A stretch of 64,000 nucleotides of DNA from Chrysomallon squamiferum (lineage: Eukaryota > Animalia > Mollusca), in contig CM022665.1 in the NCBI GenBank assembly GCA_012295275.1, positions 22,630,001 through 22,694,000 on the forward strand, in the 5' to 3' direction. Of this stretch, positions 1,231 to 58,713 are shown in pieces. The position numbers and the translations under genes were made by a program. Below the pieces are notes generated by a model. That model was not told where the DNA came from. It was given only the letters and a program-made list of their open reading frames with translations, and ran no database searches. Each line of letters starts with the position of its first letter. The stretch's first letter is position 1.

Positions 1231-2747
1231 CTGTAGAAATGAATAAATATATCAGTGAGTATTTGTTTACTTAATATAATTATTGATTATACAAAAAAAT
1301 AAAACGTGCTCAAATATTTACATTTAAATACAGAATTTAAATTTAAAGATCAACTACTGTTGTTGGTAGTTTAGGTGTTAATAATGCTATTATTATTGGG
1401 CAAAATACTTTTATGTATGATTTTCAAATTAAATCAAGTAAATAAAATAAAATGTAATATTAAAAATAAATATATAAAAATAGATACATGTATGTGGAAG
1501 AAAAAAGAAACCTATAAGTCAGAAGGTGAGATGATAAATTAGAGATTATATATATGCATAAATTTCTTTATTTTTAATAAACATTTTTTAGTTCATATTT
1601 CAGTTGAAGTAATTAAAATAATACTTTTGCCCTGATGATAAAGATATTAAAAATATGTGTTACTAGATTTTAAATCTCTATTAGATACAGAATGATAAGT
1701 AAAATACAAAATAAGCAAAGAATGACAACTTCTAGATGATACTGATAGTGATCCAATGAAACTATGTGATATAAAAAAAAAAAAATAATAATAATAATAA
1801 TAATAAATAAATAACAAAATGAAAATCTCACAAAATAATAAATGAAACAAATAGAAAATCCTCTGTAATTAAAAAATAATACAGCACATGCATGGTGATC
1901 AATTAAAAGCTACACTAACAGCAAAAAGTGTCACTAAAGAGTTACAAAATTTTGTCAACCATTTAAAAAATATATAAGCTAAGCTACTAAAATCTAGACC
2001 GACACCATGATGTTTTAAAGACTAGAACAATGATATGGATCAGTGACAAGTTTTCCCTTAACCAATAAGCTTGTCTTTATAATTTTGACTTACCATAACT
2101 TCAGGAATGAAAACCTTTAGTTACAAAATATCATAACTATTTTGCTCATGTGATACTGGTATTTTTTATCTTTTAATATTAAATGTTATGGCATGTAATT
2201 ACTACTTCTACATATTACTATAGTATTAAAGTTTTCAAGAATATATATTTTTTAAACACTGAAGTCAGAAAATTATTGTTCTATCTTTACTGATTATGCC
2301 AAGGGATAGCTTAATTGGTTAGAAAGCCTGTACTGCATTTAGATAAGGCATCTTTATTAATAATACTATATTTATGAATAAACTTTAGCAGTAACATCAT
2401 GTATACCAATTGCTTAAATGACTAAAATACCCTGGGTGTTTAAACTGTAATAATTGTACCATGATTAAAGAAATATTTAACATTATAATTTCATATATAA
2501 TTACAATAAAGTCAATATTGTTAAATTATTATGAAAATGAAATTCTGTTTAATTTTTTAAATTTAAAAAAAAAAATAATAATAATAATAATAATGAAAAA
2601 AAAAGTAAAGAAAAGTAGATATCAATTAAGGAAATCTGATTAAAAAAATTAATAATAATACATTTTTTTTTTTTTTTTATATATATATATTATATAAAAT
2701 GAGTAAAAAAAAGACAGAGCTAAAATCTTTAACATTTATGAACCAAC

Positions 2748-2849
2748 CTGAATGTCAGATATTAGGTGTGATACAGATGAAGCTTGTGGTTGGGAAAATA
2801 GCATTCTATGGGCTTGTTGAAGTCCTTTTTGTAAACTGTGAACATCATC
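2748..2849 (-). CDS. SYNE1: SYNE1-like exon (DDVHSLQKGL...ISDIQ)
   Basis: cag/gttggt boundaries, 102 nt, phase 0-0. Confidence 0.87.
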
Positions 2850-3254
2850 CTGGTATAATAATAATAATGAGAGTAATAACTTAAAAACAGCTGAACAGAT
2901 TACTGATGAAAATAAACCAAGCATTGACATTCATATATAAATAATTACAAATTATCTGTTCCAAGTAAATTAATATTATAAAACATATGCATATGAGCTT
3001 GTTGTACAAATGTCAAAATTCTTTATCAAACATTTATCACTTTATACAAATAAAACATGGCCATTTGTACTTTTTATCAATTGCACACTTTATTGCTATA
3101 CTTTATCATTGTCAAAAATTGGTGTTCAGTAACACCTAACACTTACACATTTATAAAATGGAAGTATGATATGAAATATATATGGACGATACAATTTCAG
3201 ACATATAAATTTTATTTTTGTTATTGTTAAAAGTTGGTGTCAAAAATAACAAAC

Positions 3255-3467
3255 CTGATATTGTTTCCACATAGAATTGACTTTTCTGAGTTCTTCTCCT
3301 TGAGTCTGAGCCTGACCTTCTAGAATCATAACTCGGTCATTCAGACTGGCCAGAGTTTGCTGAATCAAATCTCTACTCTCTATGCTGGTTTCAGCTAGCA
3401 ACTGTTGTGCCTGGTTGCTCATTGTAGCTATCTCCTTCTGCAGTGCTTTGATTTCATGCTGAAGTGC
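3255..3467 (-). CDS. SYNE1: SYNE1-like exon (ALQHEIKALQ...MWKQYQ)
   Basis: tag/gtttgt boundaries, 213 nt, phase 0-0. Confidence 0.9.
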
Positions 3468-3960
3468 CTAAACAATAAAGATTTAATTAATATTTATCCT
3501 CATATTCCATCCACCCATCCATATCTCCAATAAACGTATACTTCCATGTGTGCTATGCTTTAATATCTTTAAGTACCAAGTACCTGGTTTTCTCAAATTT
3601 ACATTTCCTGCAATGCTGTATTCTTCAAAGCTGTAATGACTCAATACTGTTTTGATAAATATTTTTATCATTCAATAAATTTATAAAATTGTAAAAATAT
3701 TTAACTTCTTGTTTTTATGTCATTAATTTTAATAACATCACGAAAATGTTATTATATCTTAATGTAAGAAGAACTACCAAAACAATAACAAAAAACCAAA
3801 AAACAACATTAATAAAAACAACGTCAGTAACAAAAAAACAACTGTTAATAACAACAACAACTAGACAATAATAGAAAAAACAACAAAAACCACAACATTA
3901 ACAACAACAACAACAATAATACATTTTTAATTTCAGTATATTAAACCCTCATAAGCTTAC

Positions 3961-4239
3961 TTCATTGTCTTTGAGCTGCTTCTCTGTCGACTGACTTGAG
4001 TCTGGTGCTAACACCCGTTGTTCAGCAAAATCTAGCCAGGAAGAAATGCTCAGCAGTGCATTCTGATATTGCTGCTGAAAGGATAAAGCATCTTCTAGTC
4101 GCAGCTGTCGATGCTCCACCTGATCTTCCAGTTGTTGCCAACATTCGCTAAGATCTGCGATAATCTGTCTTATTTCATTCAGATTTCTGATAGTCTCAGT
4201 ACTTGATCCAAATGAATCTAGTCTGTATGCTGCCAGCTC
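3961..4239 (-). CDS. SYNE1: SYNE1-like exon (ELAAYRLDSF...SISSWLDFAEQR...LKDNE)
   Basis: cag/gtaagc boundaries, 279 nt, phase 0-0; spectrin W motif. Confidence 0.9.
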
Positions 4240-12247: not shown

Positions 12248-13075
12248 CAGATGTTTTTCCAGGTGACCATGTGATGACCCTACACCTGAAATGACAGTAG
12301 CTTTTTCACTAAATGACTTAGGTGAGAGTGATCTCATTTGTGGAGGGGTGTAATATCGGTGGGTACCAGGTGACTGAGATGCTGCCTGAATAGACTCCTC
12401 AGATGCACTGAATCCTGCAGAATTTGATGACCTTCCAATAACTGATGACGTCTCTGGTGAAGTGCTCTGAGGATCGAGTTTTTGTTTCTTTGAAGAATGT
12501 CTGTCACTTTCAGTGTCTGTTTTGATTGGTCTGAAAGGAGAATCAAGTCCAAATCGGTCTTGTCTTTCTTTTGAGCTCAGCTTTGATTCAGAACCATAGT
12601 AATATCCAGTTACTTTCTTAGTATCATCTTTGTCTGGCAGTGTGTCTTCTGATCTTGTTGATAACAAACTTTCTTTACTGTAAGAATACTCCCCTCCACT
12701 GAAATCATCTACATTTCCACTAGATGCAAATGAGTATGATTTGGTCTTTCTAATCATGCTAATGTCAGACTGTTCTGAAAAAGATGATCTTGAAATACCA
12801 GGCTGAATTGTTCCAGTGGTTGATGACATGCTAGAAGATATATGTAATCCACTATCAGAGGTAAAACTGTCATAACCATTTTGCTGCTGTGCCCAAATTG
12901 GTGGCTCTTTGCCAGTGTAGTTTCCTTGGAAATCTGTTCCGTATGTTGCACTCAACATAAAACGTTTGCGGACTAGAGTGGGACTTCTTTGTAAACTTTT
13001 TTCTGAGAGTTCTCGACTTTTCTCATTGATTTCATTGACTCGAATTTGATAACTCTTTATTTGTGAAGCTAAATT
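12248..13075 (-). CDS. SYNE1: SYNE1-like large exon: helix B (NLASQIKSYQ...) followed by a Ser-rich disordered insertion
   Basis: tttcag acceptor, gtgggt donor, 828 nt, phase 0-0; lies within the 296-aa ORF. Confidence 0.85.
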
Positions 13076-30247: not shown

Positions 30248-30465
30248 TCTGTTCATTGAGTTACTTTATGTTTCAGCATTTGTGCAATGTCTGGGTTTTT
30301 TACTTACTTTATGCTTCTCTATTTGTGTAATGTCTGTTCTTTGACTTAGTTTATATTTCTCTATTTGTGTAACGTCTGTTTTTTGACTCACTTTGTGCTT
30401 CAGTATTTGTCTAATGTCTCTGTTTTTTTTACTCACTTTATGCTTCTCTATTTGTGTAATGTCTG
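30248..30465. repeat. Minisatellite of about five 42-45 bp units, each a copy of the exon 3' end plus splice donor
   Basis: Repeated plus-strand unit (tctg)tt..act(c/t)actttatgcttctctatttgtgtaatg; donor-equivalent exon ends at 30437, 30392, 30350, 30308 and 30265. Confidence 0.9.
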
Positions 30466-44420: not shown

Positions 44421-44539
44421 CTGACACGATCTTCAACCAATTCTGCATCTTGTGGACTAAGTTTGGAAGCCATTTCATTGACTTTTGTTCGAATGCTGTC
44501 AACTTCATCTTGTCTGGCTGCAAGCTCTTCTGCAAGTTT
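44421..44539 (-). CDS. SYNE1: SYNE1-like exon (KLAEELAARQ...VEDRV)
   Basis: tag/gttagt boundaries, 119 nt, phase 0-2; continues the spectrin repeat begun in exon 58408-58713. Confidence 0.88.
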
Positions 44540-47510: not shown

Positions 47511-50500
47511 GCAGCATATCAGTTGTATAGATCTAACCTGGATCATATGATTTGTCAATAACTGCCAGTCTTAACATGTCAATACACTCTGAGGCTGTTG
47601 TCTGCAGATAAAAGCTCAGTTCAGGTTACACTGTGACATAGAGATCACTCAATGGTTTTCATGTATGTACTTTCTAATAATACTTACTGTTTGTTAAACA
47701 GAGATAATGCCTTTAGTACTATATAATCAATTTTATTTAATTTTCTTTTATGAAGTAATTATTTTATTACAATGCTTTAAATAATTATTTTCAATAAGCA
47801 AGTAAATAAATAAATATATAAATAAATAAATAAATAAATAAATGACAACAATAATAATAGTAATAATAATGAATATAAATTATTTTTAAAAATAATAAAT
47901 AATAAAGAAACAGATTTTGACAATTTATCTATCAAGTTTTATGTTATTATTTGATATCTAAAAATCAAAGAATAAATATAAGACATAAGGGACTCATTAT
48001 TTTTTGCTTATAATTCCACAACAAAAACTATTATGAGAAGGAAAAAAAAAAATATTATTACTATTATTTTATTACTATTGTATTGTTTTTGCTATTTAAG
48101 TATCAAAAACAACTATATTCTTGAAAATTCTTGCTTTATAAACTTAATGTAGCTGATTATAAATACTATCCAACCACAGCACCTTTTTAAGAACTTTAAT
48201 GATTTTCTTTTTAATTTACTGTTTTGAGAAATCATCCCTGATATTCTTTGACTCCAGACATAATTTATTTCATTTTACTCTCTTTACTACATACATACAT
48301 ACATACATACATACATACATACAAACAAACATATTAGGCCAAACAGTGTTGTTTTTTTTATCTAAAAGGTGAAGATTTGACAAAAGCTGTAAAGAATCTT
48401 TTGAAATAAAATAAAATATTTTGGAAAATTATCATAAATGACTATTTTATCCATACCATGTCAAAAAAAAAAAAAAAAAAAAAACCCCACCTGTGAACAT
48501 TGGGAGATTATGAGCAAAGCCAGAAAACTCTTGTCATTTATGATTTAGTATGAGAAAAGAATTACCTCCCATTATACATAAAAAGCACCAATAAATTTAT
48601 AAGCTTTAAATCACTTTTGTTTAGGTTTTTGTTAATTGTGTGAACTCTTTTAATTGTCCTTAATCAAATTAAACCATAAGACTTTAAAAATAATACACCT
48701 TCAACATGCCTATCAAAAAAAATAAAAAAATTGTAAGAAGTCTTTCATTATACCACACAAATTTCAATATTTAATCATAAGTCTTTGCATGAGTATTTAT
48801 TTCATACTGTGATTAATTCATTAATTCACCCATGCATCCAGTTATTTGTTTTATTATTATTGTTTAAAGCTTATTATTAAATAATATATAGTGATGATTA
48901 CATTTTTCTGCAAATTTAGACATGCTTCATAACTGTAATTTACTAATGCAGTTAGTAATGATCAACAATATAATTGCTACATGGCACCTTCAAGATATGC
49001 ACACCAAAACATTCCAGCAATTGTTTTAAATGTTTTTTCAAACACAACTGCATGCAAGTGTACAAATGAAATTTTTTGTAATAATAATAATTCAGATATA
49101 AAATAACTTTTCAATATATCTATCAAATTTATAATCAACAAAACCAATTTTTGATTTAGTACTTTTATTTCTGATATATGCAAAAATAAATAAGAACATG
49201 CATTTAATATACATGTTGCAGATTATAAATAAATAAATAGTTATCATAATTATACATAAAATAGTTGAAATTTTATACAAAATGGCATACAAAAATAAAA
49301 GCCTTTGACCATAATGGAGACTGATTAAAATTGTTTATTCCCAATAATAAAAACTGATAATAAACAAGTAATCTTTCCCAGAGCCATGACAATTAATTAT
49401 GTTCATTCTTCTTTCTTTTTTTATTCTGTTTTTATTAAACAGAAGTTTTGTGTTTATACATGGCTGATTCACATTAAGATTCAGACAGATGTTTTTGTCT
49501 ATATATTTTGACATTTTATTAGTTTTAAAAAAAGTACAGTTTGTTCTTTTCCAATTTTAAAATGCTTATTTTGCACAAATTATAATCTGTATTAGCACAC
49601 AATTATTCTTCAGTTTTCTGGGCACTAACTAATATTAATGTTGAATAATAATCTGTTAATGGTACATAATTTAATTCCTTAAACTAAATAAAAACCATAA
49701 TATCTCACATCACACTATCAACCTTATTAAAAATTAATACTAAAAGAATGTAATATAAATCTTTAAAACGCTATCAAGGTTAACTTTGGTATAATAGATT
49801 ATATGATTAATAAGGACGGAAGAACTGAATTACATTAATTGTAACTTTGGTAGGTTATAAATAGGTATCATAGATAATACATTAGGCATTCAATAAAATC
49901 ATTATGATTTATGTCAGGTAATTGCTTATCACAATAAGCCATTAATATATTACACAAACAATGAAAATTTCACATAATAATTTGCTGAATATATAAAATG
50001 TTTTATAAAAATAAAACAAAATAATAAAAAGATTTGATATTATTAATGATTATTAATGTTTTCTAACAAGTCTAAGTATATGCAAAACACAGTTACTACA
50101 ATAAAAATGTAACAGATACTCAGAATCCAAATTTCACCTTTGGACAAATTAAAAAAAGAATAATGGGATGGATGGATGGAAAAGACGGACACGAATGTAC
50201 ATGGTCAGAAAAAGCCATGCTAACAGTTGTTTGAAAATAAGTACATTTAAATAATTTCCTAACTAATATATTATTTTTAAGGGGAATAAGTTAATTATAA
50301 ATATTATTTTGCTGAAAATTATATATAAAATAACAGAATTAATGGCATTTCATCATCAGTAATAAAAACATTATTTTATTTTTGTTTGTAAAGTTATATC
50401 ATGAAAGATCAAAAGCATTTAATAAAATTTCACTGAATAATGCAATAAAATAAACTGTTTATAATAAGTATGTCTATGCAAAAGCTGAATACTTTTAAAT

Positions 50501-50843: not shown

Positions 50844-51663
50844 TGATGATGATTTATATATTGATAAAAATTATCACAGATATTTATTAGCAACACAAAC
50901 TGAAACAGAACAGTATATACAGTTTATCACAGACATTAAAAGATCCTTGAATTCTAAAATTTGAATGGAAGAAAAAATATCTCCATTAAAAAGCTTATCA
51001 CAAAATGTCAGGACTTCAGAAATGTTACTTATTATCCTATACAAAATATATGCTAACTATTTCCTACAACTAATGTCTTTGATATTTATTCAAATACATG
51101 AAAGTATTTTATCAATTAAAACATTTTAATAATTAAAAATTAAAATTAAAATTATAAAACATATGCTTCTTTAAAATATAATAATAATAACAAGGAAACA
51201 AACAATACTATCTTTGCTTAATGATTTAATGCTAATCATCATTCATATATTTTTTTTTTTTTTCAATCTATTATTAAGGAAAAAAACAACAAAACAATCA
51301 GAGTAATAATTAGTCTGTGTGTTTTAGTGCACAAATTTTTTAAGTATTAACTTTAGCTATTAAAATAATGTTTGTGTTAACTTTAACAGATCATTTCTAT
51401 ATAACTGAAAATAGAGACACTTGATATTTTCATAATAAAAATACACATGTTCAAGAGGATTAAAATGTCTAAAAAAGACAAAATTATTCTTTGATATTCG
51501 CTTTTATGTAAAATACACAGAATAAATAAATTGATAAAAAGTTTTACATGAAAAAACTTCTTATAATAAGAGATATATTTTGTTTTAAACTGACAAAAAT
51601 ATCACAGATATAAATTAAATAACCATCATTAAATGAGACAGGCATCAAAATACTGTTCACCAA

Positions 51664-53346
51664 CTAGTACCCAAATTTAGTCAGTTCATTTCTGAGATCT
51701 CTTTTCATCTTTGATGACATTTTCTTGAGCTGTCGTGCTGTTGATGCAGCAGCAGATAAAGCATCATCTAAATGGTAACGCCCCATGACACTCTCATAAT
51801 TTGAAGTGCGGTGACGTCGACGTGAAGATGTTCTGATATCAATACCACCTGAGAGTAAATCCATGTCATCATATGAGTGAACGAACTCTCTAACACGGTA
51901 TCTCCTCGGATGAACTAGAACAGGTGGTGGGGGAGCAGGCAGAGCCCTTCTGCTTTCAGGATATGTCATATTTGGATTAACTGGGAGTGCTCTTCGAGAA
52001 GGCAGTTGATAGTTACGAAGTCGCTCAAGTCTTTCATTAACATTGTTCAGATCATCTATGGTAACTCGGCGCTGGGTTGAAACTGGAGATGGTAGTGGAG
52101 CAACTCCATCTACTGGATATGTGCTCATGAAACGTGGCTGGTATTCATATGGCTCAGGTCCATTAACTTCTGGACCAGTAGCTCGGGGAACAGCTGGTTG
52201 AGGAACAGGTGCAAATCCATTTACAAATGAGCCAAATGGAGCATTTCTTGCTACAGCAGGTTCTCCTGTCATTGGTTTAGGTGATTCAAGTTGTGCTGAT
52301 GTTGCACGTGTTCCGAGGCTTGAACGGTTTCTCTGATCAAATGGTGACTCAAAAATACTTCTACTTGCTGTCTGAGATGGTGAACTCCTGTCCCCACTCT
52401 TTATGCGATTTACTTCTTCAAACAGTTCTTGAAATCGACCTTGTCTTTGTCTGCGGGTATTATCTCCTTCTGGAAAAAGCCTTAGAGATGTCTGAGTAGC
52501 CTGCTGAGAACTAGTTTGTGTCATTGCATCTCCCTGTCGACCAGCATTTTTCAAATCCTGGACATCACGATACAACATCTCCAACTGTTCTTTCTGAATT
52601 GACATGTCAGATGCTAAAGAAATATCATCACAGAAACTGCTGTTTGCTGAACTAATTCCTTGCTGCCTTTTAATGTCTTTCACTTCAGAGAGAATACTGC
52701 GTAACAAGTTGCTTTTTGACTTACTTCGTTTCTTAGTTTGAGCACCAATGGAATGAAGTGATAGATTTGATGTTTGTGCTGCTGAATCTTGGGGAAACCT
52801 TTCAGTCTGGGTCTGAATTGAGCGGGGAAACATATGTTCATCAGTTTGAGTTCGAGAATGAGCTGGAGTTTGAGAAGTAGCATTTCTAAGATCCTCAGGA
52901 TTTACAGGCAAAAAGAAGCCTGATACAAAACTAGCTATAGATTCTGTGTCTGAATCTCCAAATACAGTGGGTGTTTCAGAACCTATCCAATCAGATGGTT
53001 CTTCAAGATGGGTGTCAAAACTAGAGGCATGCATTGTGTCTCCTACTGTATCACCATATCCAGACTCCTCACTGTCAGACAAACATCCTGCAGCAGCAGC
53101 ACCTTTCTTTAACTTTTCCACCCGGCTTTGATTCAGAGTTCGATTTAAAGTCCTTGGAGTCATGGATCTGGACAAATTGCCACTGCGGGATCTCTTCATG
53201 GATGGTGATCCTGGAGGCTGGCCTTTTCCTTTGGATGATCCACGTGGTGTTTTCCATCGAAATGAATCATCAGCACTGTTGTCAAGTGGGTTTATATGTT
53301 GACGAGATGTGTTAGGAGTTTGTGTTGACCGACAAGGGCGTTTAGT
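51664..53346 (-). CDS. Putative alternative terminal exon: 560-aa disordered tail with multiple TQT (LC8-type) motifs, SH3 ligands and a C-terminal helix, ending in TAG
   Basis: The 511-aa ORF extends 49 codons upstream without a stop to a pyrimidine-rich acceptor (ctattcctccatcactttgtacag). It is phase 0, matching the donor of exon 58408-58713, and on the same strand as the host gene. Confidence 0.8.
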   Translation of the reverse strand, partial: TKRPCRSTQTPNTSRQHINPLDNSADDSFRWKTPRGSSKGKGQPPGSPSMKRSRSGNLSRSMTPRTLNRTLNQSRVEKLKKGAAAAGCLSDSEESGYGDTVGDTMHASSFDTHLEEPSDWIGSETPTVFGDSDTESIASFVSGFFLPVNPEDLRNATSQTPAHSRTQTDEHMFPRSIQTQTERFPQDSAAQTSNLSLHSIGAQTKKRSKSKSNLLRSILSEVKDIKRQQGISSANSSFCDDISLASDMSIQKEQLEMLYRDVQDLKNAGRQGDAMTQTSSQQATQTSLRLFPEGDNTRRQRQGRFQELFEEVNRIKSGDRSSPSQTASRSIFESPFDQRNRSSLGTRATSAQLESPKPMTGEPAVARNAPFGSFVNGFAPVPQPAVPRATGPEVNGPEPYEYQPRFMSTYPVDGVAPLPSPVSTQRRVTIDDLNNVNERLERLRNYQLPSRRALPVNPNMTYPESRRALPAPPPPVLVHPRRYRVREFVHSYDDMDLLSGGIDIRTSSRRRHRTSNYESVMGRYHLDDALSAAASTARQLKKMSSKMKRDLRNELTKFGY

Positions 53347-53510
53347 CTGTACAAAGTGATGGAGGAATAGCAGTTATTATAACAAGTTGTTGCATGCATG
53401 GTAATTGTACTATAAAAAATCTAAAACATGCTTTAGTGCATTATTATAATTAATAGTATTTATTGAAGAAAAAAAAATTCTAGATCAAAAGTGAAATTAG
53501 CAATTATTGA

Positions 53511-53610
53511 TTTTTTGGTTTTAGTAAAATAAAAATTAAAATCTGTCATTTTAATTATTAATTTTTGGTTTTATTAAAAAAAAAAAATTAAAATCTGTCA
53601 TTTTAATTAT
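53511..53610. repeat. Short tandem duplication (2 x about 50 bp)
   Basis: tttttggtttta.taaaa..aaaaattaaaatctgtcattttaattat occurs twice. Confidence 0.75.
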
Positions 53611-58407: not shown

Positions 58408-58713
58408 CTTCATCAGCATACTTTTGTTCTGTACTGAAGCCTCTGACTGGTCAATACGCTCCAGCTCTCTGACATAGTTCTCCAAGTCTTCATCCATGGT
58501 TTCCTGCTGAGCCTGCAGGTCACGGGCAGAGATCATTTCCTGACAACGTTGATCTATCAGCATGTCCATTTGTCCAAGAAGTTCCTCCCAGTCATCCTGA
58601 AGAGCTCTCATGACTGGGTCAACAAGAGAGGAGTTATGTTCTGTCAGAGAGTTGTACTGGGAGAGAAGTTCTTTGATGGCTGGGCCTCGGGCTTGGATCT
58701 CATCCCTTAATGC
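58408..58713 (-). CDS. SYNE1: SYNE1-like exon (ALRDEIQARG...DDWEELL...SMLMK)
   Basis: cag/gtagga boundaries, 306 nt, phase 0-0. Confidence 0.92.

What the first reader, a model, noticed from the sequence alone, without database searches (positions are those of the whole stretch)
52367..53331. Multivalent LC8 (DYNLL) binding array: about 9 (T)QT motifs interleaved with short helical repeats
Seen: RSTQTP, ATSQTP, SRTQTD, SIQTQTE, SAAQTS, IGAQTK, AMTQTS, QATQTS and SPSQTA; five of them are spaced roughly 7-12 aa apart. They alternate with three similar amphipathic segments (LRSILSEVKDIK, LEMLYRDVQDLK, FQELFEEVNRIK). Known: LC8 dimers bind TQT-anchored motifs in disordered regions (for example Bim KSTQTP, and multivalent arrays in ASCIZ and Nup159) and promote dimerisation of adjacent coiled coils. 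Inference: the tail is an LC8-zippered dimeric scaffold.
Basis: partly seen in the sequence, partly recalled or inferred. Interest (0 to 1): 0.75.

Follow-up and report, generated by a model that had tools for sequence, protein, structure and literature searches.

The report
Nesprin alternative tail with LC8 motifs
A nesprin-1-like gene, whose named relatives are all molluscs, splices into a conserved, likely alternative last exon whose predicted-disordered tail holds eight conserved QT motifs that likely bind the dimer-forming hub protein LC8, which would pair two chains into a scaffold lacking the nuclear-membrane anchor.

Summary
All nine motifs and three helices are in the sequence. They lie in a 560-codon minus-strand exon (53346-51664) of a giant spectrin-repeat gene; homologs are annotated nesprin-1/SYNE1 in snails and bivalves. 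RNA contigs of 2 of 4 runs (one study) show the splice from the upstream spectrin exon, and one runs unspliced past the stop. More spectrin exons follow, and skipping this exon restores a broken spectrin repeat, so it is likely an alternative last exon. The tail has no transmembrane segment, so no KASH anchor. Ten QT dipeptides occur where 2.3 are expected (3 of 100,000 shuffles). Eight sites are conserved (87-100% of aligned homologs); the ninth, SPSQTA, is not (0 of 36). Six fit published LC8 anchor rules, two (AQT-type) do not. Two pairs sit exactly 8 residues apart in every sequence, tighter than any LC8 array in the papers read (11 or more). Motifs and helices do not strictly alternate, and two more conserved helices follow. 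LC8 binding is inferred, not shown. Verdict: a new variant combining two known things, multivalent LC8 arrays and KASH-less nesprin isoforms.

The parts
51664..53346 (-). Large coding exon, 560 codons plus TAG stop; likely alternative terminal exon of the nesprin-1-like gene
   Evidence: Open frame; phase-0 acceptor; RNA junction and unspliced run past the stop; homolog proteins end with it
58408..58713 (-). Upstream spectrin-repeat exon that splices to the tail exon (GT donor, phase 0)
   Evidence: 27-base loose end of RNA contigs maps to 58410-58436
44421..44539 (-). First downstream spectrin exon (phase-0 acceptor); completes the spectrin repeat that the tail exon interrupts
   Evidence: Predicted: in-frame join, repeat scores 15.3 bits across the junction against 0.1; homologous stretch in Biomphalaria P0096. 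Not seen in RNA
53314..53337 (-). Motif 1, PCRSTQTP (Q9): canonical TQT site at the exon start, next to the last spectrin helix
   Evidence: QT in 21 of 21 covering homologs; no rule broken
52840..52887 (-). Doublet A: RNATSQTP (Q159) and AHSRTQTD (Q167), abutting, spacing 8
   Evidence: QT in 36 of 36 and 35 of 36 homologs; spacing 8 in 37 of 37 sequences
52801..52824 (-). Motif 4, RSIQTQTE (Q180): canonical TQT site
   Evidence: 35 of 36 homologs; no rule broken
52732..52791 (-). Weak-anchor motifs QDSAAQTS (Q191) and HSIGAQTK (Q203), spaced 11 and 12 after motif 4
   Evidence: QT in 20 of 23 and 33 of 37 homologs; -1 residue mostly M, A or N; site 191 deleted as a unit in 14 sequences
52486..52533 (-). 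Doublet B: GDAMTQTS (Q277) and SQQATQTS (Q285), abutting, spacing 8
   Evidence: QT in 37 of 37 for both; spacing 8 in 38 of 38 sequences
52366..52389 (-).
   Evidence: 0 of 36 homologs; internal proline
52663..52725 (-). Predicted amphipathic helix 1 (residues 208-228)
   Evidence: AlphaFold2, pLDDT about 75; conserved hydrophobic positions
52534..52593 (-). Predicted amphipathic helix 2 (residues 252-271)
52399..52461 (-). Predicted amphipathic helix 3 (residues 296-316)
52015..52059 (-).
   Evidence: pLDDT about 90; R439 and L443 invariant in 38 sequences
51676..51771 (-). Predicted C-terminal helix (residues 526-557), soluble, in place of a KASH anchor
   Evidence: pLDDT 91-96; conserved heptad-like leucines; no hydrophobic segment
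53020..53082 (-). Conserved acidic, serine-rich element (residues 89-109), function not determined
   Evidence: Column identity 0.85-0.92; pattern present in 33 of 38 sequences

Best explanation
This is a spliced exon of a nesprin-1-like spectrin-repeat gene that likely acts as an alternative last exon and whose predicted-disordered product likely binds several LC8 dimers through its conserved QT motifs, which would pair two chains of a KASH-less isoform. Shown: the exon, the splice into it, the stop, the lack of a transmembrane segment, and selection on eight QT sites across snails and bivalves. Inferred: (1) the long form skips the exon and continues through the spectrin rod; (2) LC8 dimers add a beta-strand from each of two chains at the canonical sites (Q9, Q180, Q285, and the doublet partners), and the weak sites Q191 and Q203, spaced 11 and 12, fill cooperatively as in KANK1; (3) the short two-heptad helices, too short to pair alone, self-associate once LC8 holds the chains in register, as in dynein intermediate chain and Swallow; (4) each 8-spaced doublet most likely holds one LC8 dimer at a time, giving about 5-6 dimers rather than 9; (5) the dimeric C-terminal helices would dock the isoform on a cytoplasmic structure instead of the nuclear envelope.
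For: Enrichment over shuffles and over the rod of the same proteins: 5-6 TQT in 524-565 tail residues against 0-1 in 2040-4217 rod residues of three homologs. Anchor Q kept in 92-100% of homologs against 24% for 23 other Q positions. Flank rules met at 250 of 274 QT sites against 3367 of 4812 other positions (rows are related, not independent). Close likeness to validated binders in Table S4 of PMC6607443 and to the two sub-micromolar Panoramix sites, which also have Ala at -3 (PMC7861614). Site 191 is deleted as a 10-residue unit in 14 sequences, leaving a spacing of 13. Spacings of 11-12 equal the 3-4 residue linkers of KANK1. Splice in RNA; eight annotated mollusc proteins join the same upstream exon to this tail and end there; the skip form restores a spectrin repeat; the same downstream exons follow in Biomphalaria.
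Against: No binding experiment exists. Sites 191 and 203 mostly have M, A or N at -1, seen in none of 79 published binders. Site 277 usually has a small residue at -3 and a hydrophobic one at +2, both disfavoured. The published predictor is only 78% accurate and lists 32 anchor-bearing non-binders. Motif flanks are no more conserved than the rest of the region (0.58 against 0.59), so the whole region is constrained, not only the motifs. An invariant spacing of 8 is shorter than any in the LC8 arrays read and suggests a geometry that LC8 stacking may not explain. The skip form was not seen in RNA, and no CH or KASH domain lies in the exons examined. The RNA junction rests on one study and a 27-base overhang.
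Confidence: 0.62

Rival explanations
1. The QT sites, above all the two 16-residue doublets, are read by another partner or fold with the helices into a self-assembled structure; LC8 binds few or none of them. Candidates would be another dimeric light chain such as Tctex-1, or an unknown strand-accepting domain.
For: Invariant spacing of 8 in 37 of 37 and 38 of 38 sequences, below the 11 or more of known arrays; non-canonical -1 residues at two conserved sites; flanks and neighbouring sequence equally conserved.
Against: Sites 9, 180 and 285 break no published rule in the window and in 18 of 21, 25 of 36 and 33 of 37 homologs; the conservation peak falls on Q0 and T+1 (0.98, 0.96), the LC8 anchor; no folded domain is predicted (pTM 0.26).
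Confidence: 0.17
2. The exon is not an alternative end: either it is the only end of a KASH-less gene and the downstream exons are a separate gene, or it is an internal exon spliced onward just before its stop.
For: Biomphalaria annotations list the downstream exons as a separate 'dystrophin' (P0095, P0096); one B. glabrata model (P0094) carries the exon internally; no skip-form protein or RNA was found.
Against: The exon falls in the middle of a spectrin repeat that the downstream exon completes in phase; P0094's join drops the first 10 residues of the downstream exon, as a prediction artefact would; an RNA contig runs 88 bases past the stop unspliced.
Confidence: 0.1
3. The exon is mainly a separate nested gene, translated from an internal Met as a 428-430 residue protein.
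For: NCBI XP_ records in three Mytilus species and Crassostrea virginica list a stand-alone uncharacterised protein starting at that Met.
Against: Motif 1 lies 100-133 residues before that Met and is kept in 21 of 21 covering homologs; in Mytilus and Sinanodonta no Met precedes it within the exon after motif 1; the splice from the spectrin exon is in RNA. A short second transcript could still coexist.
Confidence: 0.06
4. The array is an S/T-Q cluster phosphorylated by ATM or ATR kinases (definition recalled).
For: Six sites carry S/T-Q, three of them within 22 residues.
Against: These kinases do not need a Thr after the Gln (recalled), yet 200 of 329 S/T-Q in the 38 tails are followed by Thr where Thr is 7.6% of residues, and 127 QT have no S/T before them.
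Confidence: 0.05

Closest known systems
KANK1 linker L2 with LC8 (bioRxiv 10.1101/2025.07.16.665182; abstract, passages and section 10 read)
   Same: Cytoskeletal scaffold with a disordered stretch holding many LC8 sites, several weak, at 3-4 residue linkers; cooperative binding stiffens two chains into a rod.
   Different: KANK1 has 15 or more mostly non-canonical sites in an internal linker; here eight mostly QT sites in clusters of 1, 5 and 2, with zero-linker doublets and short helices, in a spliced-in terminal exon.
ASCIZ/ATMIN and Nup159 multivalent LC8 arrays (PMC10046861, introduction and part 1 of the discussion read)
   Same: Several TQT sites in a disordered region forming an LC8-bridged duplex; mixed strong and weak sites.
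   Different: Shortest linker there is 3 residues (anchor spacing 11); unrelated proteins and functions.
Dynein intermediate chain, Swallow, syntaphilin (PMC3995210, passages read)
   Same: LC8 binding promotes self-association of nearby weak helices or coiled coils.
   Different: One or two sites and one helix there; here eight sites and five predicted helices; self-association is untested here.
KASH-less isoforms of Drosophila Msp300 (B, E, F) and vertebrate nesprin-1/2 (PMC11230431, passages read)
   Same: Nesprin genes make KASH-less isoforms by alternative terminators and splice sites, with their own locations and jobs.
   Different: No LC8 array is described in the passages read; Msp300-PE has tandem repeats and a transmembrane end, this tail has neither; the profile search found no insect or vertebrate-named match.
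[quoted passage not shown]
   Same: A KASH-family protein linked to the LC8 homologue DLC-1.
   Different: UNC-83 keeps its KASH anchor, has no described multivalent QT array in the passages read, and recruits dynein regulators.

Membership tests
Multivalent LC8/DYNLL client | Anchor with Q at 0, T/V/I/C at +1 and T/S/V/I at -1 | tested here: met
   Met at six sites (9, 159, 167, 180, 277, 285); rules from PMC6607443 section 9 and Table S4
Multivalent LC8/DYNLL client | Same anchor rule at sites 191 and 203 | tested here: not met
   -1 is A in the window at both; rule broken in 17 of 22 and 35 of 37 homologs. KANK1 shows that weak sites can still bind in arrays
Multivalent LC8/DYNLL client | Motifs lie in disordered sequence | tested here: met
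   pLDDT under 50 over most of 1-205 in both models; 277-299 under 50 in the single-sequence model, but a low-confidence helix (pLDDT 50-53) in the alignment model
Multivalent LC8/DYNLL client | Anchors conserved while linkers vary | tested here: met
   0.96 against 0.33 in 9 divergent homologs; 167-to-180 spacing varies 13-21
Multivalent LC8/DYNLL client | Inter-motif spacing that lets LC8 dimers stack (11 or more in the arrays read) | tested here: inconclusive
   Met for 167-180-191-203; not met for the two doublets at 8
Multivalent LC8/DYNLL client | LC8Pred score above threshold | not tested
Multivalent LC8/DYNLL client | Direct, QT-dependent binding and duplex formation | not testable with these tools
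   Needs ITC, SEC-MALS or pull-down
Nesprin-1/SYNE1/Msp300 | Long rod of nesprin-type spectrin repeats | tested here: met
   Pfam Spectrin and Spectrin_SYNE1 far above cut-off in homologs P0040, P0002, P0054, P0097, whose exons match the window in order; single window exons score below cut-off
Nesprin-1/SYNE1/Msp300 | N-terminal calponin homology domains | not testable with these tools
   Outside the window; no genome held; homolog models scanned are partial
Nesprin-1/SYNE1/Msp300 | C-terminal transmembrane helix and KASH peptide, in the tail isoform | tested here: not met
   Highest 19-residue hydropathy 0.97 in 38 tails; no KASH hit in tail-ending proteins. Consistent with a KASH-less isoform
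Nesprin-1/SYNE1/Msp300 | KASH domain at the end of the long isoform | not testable with these tools
   The gene runs off the low end of the window
Alternative terminal exon | Spliced to an upstream exon and read through to its own stop | tested here: met
   2 of 4 runs show the junction, one study
Alternative terminal exon | A skipping transcript exists, and a polyadenylation site follows the stop | tested here: inconclusive
   In-frame, repeat-restoring skip predicted; candidate signals from 51225 downward; neither seen in RNA
ATM/ATR S/T-Q cluster | Selection on S/T-Q regardless of the next residue (recalled) | tested here: not met
   selection falls on Q-T

The most novel reading that the evidence does not exclude
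Molluscs switch nesprin-1 between two anchors by last-exon choice: the nuclear-envelope KASH end, or an LC8-zippered dimeric tail that makes it the first nesprin to be a direct multivalent LC8 client. Its invariant zero-linker QT doublets are both occupied, in an LC8 packing tighter than any described, or act as a built-in register switch.
Probability: 0.3. Interest if true: 0.72.

Novelty: new variant of a known kind. Interest (0 to 1): 0.5.

Why it matters
KASH-less nesprin isoforms are known in flies, worms and vertebrates, but how they are dimerised and placed without the anchor is unclear. Here a single conserved exon supplies a concrete, testable answer for molluscs. It adds a natural LC8 array with dozens of orthologs, including a clade that lost one motif as a unit, and with motif pairs closer than the published minimum, which directly tests how tightly LC8 dimers can stack. 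It also corrects annotation: several databases list the exon as a separate uncharacterised gene.

Tried and rejected
Complex prediction of residues 244-322 (2 copies) with a stand-in LC8 (4 copies; 87 of 89 residues identical to a solved dynein light chain 2) gave no answer: 0.19 and 0.21 against a mark of 0.34, alignments not used, controls not folded. Pfam found no family in the tail. The tail profile had no solved relative (best E 3.7). The protein atlas gave no usable hit for residues 85-325 or 512-560. No fold search was run, because both models are low-confidence (pTM 0.26 and 0.21). RNA was laid only on 50860-53600, so the skip junction is untested; runs X1 and X4 also hold contigs that cross the acceptor unspliced, so coverage alone is no proof of transcription. 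SPSQTA rejected as a motif. Strict motif-helix alternation rejected. The read-through model P0094 judged a likely prediction artefact. A recalled likeness of the last helix to the C-terminus of AKNA-family centrosomal proteins found no support (paper search 0 hits; no such hit). Earlier scan findings: none. Paper searches (25 of 306, 25 of 54, 8 of 9, 15 of 16 and 20 of 80 listed, seen as listings) showed no title or abstract start describing this exon or a nesprin LC8 array. SYNE1/2 and nesprin are absent from the four readable supplements of PMC6607443; Msp300 occurs only in two expression tables among the supplements of PMC7861614, not in its TQT list. Two .doc supplements of PMC6607443, all seven of PMC3078936 and bioRxiv supplements could not be read and might list a human nesprin motif.

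Full report
The window is AT-rich animal DNA that carries many short coding exons on the minus strand from one end to the other, with the pattern of spectrin repeats. The finding lies in a much larger exon. It opens at a phase-0 acceptor at 53346 and reads 560 codons to a stop at 51664-51666. No Pfam family matches it.

Observation. The tail has 10 QT and 5 TQT; shuffles give 2.28 and 0.16 on average, and 3 and 0 of 100,000 reach the observed values. The anchors lie at residues 9, 159, 167, 180, 191, 203, 277, 285 and 325. The five clustered sites are spaced 8, 13, 11 and 12. Motifs and helices do not alternate strictly: helices 1 and 2 have no motif between them.

What gene this is. A search among longer proteins found one hit, a 2582-residue Sinanodonta protein named for nesprin-1 spectrin repeats, which ends in this tail at 38% identity. 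A search among similar lengths found 37 hits among the 7993 candidates scored, and a third found Biomphalaria nesprin-1. Every named member is a snail or bivalve (names; the grouping is my knowledge). The long homologs carry Pfam Spectrin and Spectrin_SYNE1 far above cut-off and match the window's exons in order. A profile of the 38 aligned tails, run against 1.84 billion representatives, gave 21 hits at E 0.001 or better; 12 were already in the alignment and the four new ones looked up are unnamed. So the tail looks confined to molluscs or near kin, though the divergent unnamed hits cannot be placed.

Exon status. RNA contigs from 2 of 4 runs, all of one study, end at the acceptor with a 27-base loose end that matches the end of the upstream spectrin exon exactly and only there. 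One contig runs unspliced from the acceptor to 88 bases past the stop. Two runs also hold unspliced contigs across the acceptor, so DNA or pre-mRNA is present, but a join over a 5 kb GT-AG intron is not explained by that. Eight annotated proteins join the same two exons and end in the tail (P0002, P0010, P0020, P0040, P0054, P0056, P0093, P0097). Spectrin exons resume at 44539. Joining 58408 to 44539 keeps the frame, and a profile built from homolog repeats scores one repeat across that junction at 15.3 bits, against 0.1 when the tail is joined instead. The same downstream exons follow in Biomphalaria. I infer an alternative last exon set in the middle of a repeat. The skip form itself was not seen. 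Against this, Biomphalaria annotations split the downstream exons off as a separate gene, and one model carries the exon internally, by a join that drops 10 residues of the next exon. NCBI records in Mytilus and Crassostrea list the exon as a stand-alone 428-430 residue protein, but the invariant first motif lies 100 or more residues before their start. No tail has a hydrophobic segment (highest 19-residue hydropathy 0.97 in 38 sequences), so this isoform has no KASH anchor.

Conservation. Among homologs that cover each column, QT is kept in 21 of 21, 36 of 36, 35 of 36, 35 of 36, 20 of 23, 33 of 37, 37 of 37 and 37 of 37, but in 0 of 36 for SPSQTA (the rest of the 37 are truncated or gapped there). 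Other Gln positions are kept 24% of the time. In 9 homologs under 55% identical to each other, the QT columns score 0.96, eight linker columns 0.33, motif flanks 0.58 and the rest of the region 0.59. Spacing is fixed at 8 for 159-167 (37 of 37 sequences) and 277-285 (38 of 38), at 11 for 180-191 (20 of 21) and 12 for 191-203 (20 of 20), and free for 167-180 (13-21) (these counts include the window's own sequence). Fourteen sequences lack site 191 through a 10-residue deletion that leaves 180-203 at 13, which looks like loss of one module.

Fit to LC8. I applied the positional rules of PMC6607443 (sections 9 and 12, supplement 1 and Table S4 read), not its scoring matrices. Sites 9, 180 and 285 break no rule in the window; 159, 167 and 277 break only the soft rule on a small residue at -3; 191 and 203 break the -1 rule; 325 has an internal proline. 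By my reading of Table S4, all 79 binders have T, S, V or I at -1. The two Panoramix sites, bound at 0.2-0.7 micromolar, also have Ala at -3 (PMC7861614, passages and supplement rows), so that rule is soft. KANK1 shows that individually weak sites at 3-4 residue linkers bind cooperatively and stiffen two chains into a rod (bioRxiv 10.1101/2025.07.16.665182); spacings of 11 and 12 here are the same linker lengths. The doublets are the odd part. The shortest linker in ASCIZ is 3 residues (PMC10046861), Nup159 has 4-5, and the closest listed pair in Table S4 is 11 apart. A spacing of 8 leaves no linker. Two LC8 dimers may not fit side by side, so I expect one dimer per doublet, but the invariance of the spacing is unexplained by that.

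Structure. AlphaFold2 with and without the alignment predicts no folded domain (pTM 0.26, 0.21), disorder over most of 1-205 and 322-427, and helices at about 208-228, 252-271, 296-316, 430-444 and 526-557. Conserved hydrophobic residues in them fall at 3-4 spacing. LC8-promoted pairing of such weak helices is established for dynein intermediate chain and Swallow (PMC3995210, passages). Pairing here is inferred.

Mechanism. Most likely the gene makes a long form that ends at the nuclear envelope and a shorter form that stops at this exon. LC8 dimers would clamp two tails in parallel, first at the canonical sites, then cooperatively at the weak ones; the short helices would pair; and the dimeric end would dock the rod on a cytoplasmic structure. 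I put this at 0.62. Another partner or fold for the doublets gets 0.17, a different exon arrangement 0.10, a nested gene 0.06, and an ATM/ATR cluster 0.05, since selection falls on the Thr after the Gln (200 of 329 S/T-Q are followed by Thr at 7.6% background, and 127 QT lack a preceding S/T).

Comparison. It works like KANK1, ASCIZ and Nup159 arrays and belongs, by homology, to the nesprin-1 family; membership among LC8 clients awaits a binding test. KASH-less nesprin isoforms are known in flies and vertebrates (PMC11230431, passages), and the worm KASH protein UNC-83 acts with a DLC-1-containing complex (PMC2953438, passages). My five searches on nesprin with LC8 or molluscs (seen as listings) showed no description of this exon; subscription papers and several supplements were out of reach. 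Both ingredients are known; their combination in a conserved exon, and the zero-linker doublets, appear undescribed. Interest 0.5.

Noticed in passing
window 53020-53082 (-): The most conserved non-QT block of the tail is an acidic serine-rich stretch ending in a Ser-Gly-Tyr-Gly-acid-Thr pattern (33 of 38 sequences). It recalls a beta-TrCP phosphodegron (recalled, non-canonical first residue, untested).
   Followed up: partly
window 51676-51771 (-): The soluble C-terminal helix recalls, from memory only, the C-terminus of AKNA-family centrosomal proteins; searches gave no support.
   Followed up: partly
window 12248-13075 (-), approximate: A second large non-spectrin exon of the same gene, about 275 codons, serine-rich, with no QT motif and a candidate donor just before its stop, so probably internal.
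   Followed up: partly
window 30248-30465: A 42-base tandem repeat (5.1 copies) overlaps the end of a spectrin exon and extends its reading frame with repeated peptide units; it may duplicate the splice donor.
   Followed up: partly
window 47536-47601 (-): A short frame of 22 codons behind a good acceptor and ending in a stop, in the same intron as the tail exon; could be a chance frame or a second tiny last exon.
   Followed up: no
P0097 (Biomphalaria glabrata): Named 'KASH domain-containing protein' by its source, yet it ends in this tail and Pfam finds no KASH domain in it.
   Followed up: yes
P0100 (unnamed, divergent): Keeps doublet A, a motif like site 180, helix 1 and both C-terminal helices but seems to lack doublet B; may show the older core of the exon.
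   Followed up: partly
window 52429: A T-to-C difference in RNA contigs of 3 of 4 runs; probably an allele.
   Followed up: no
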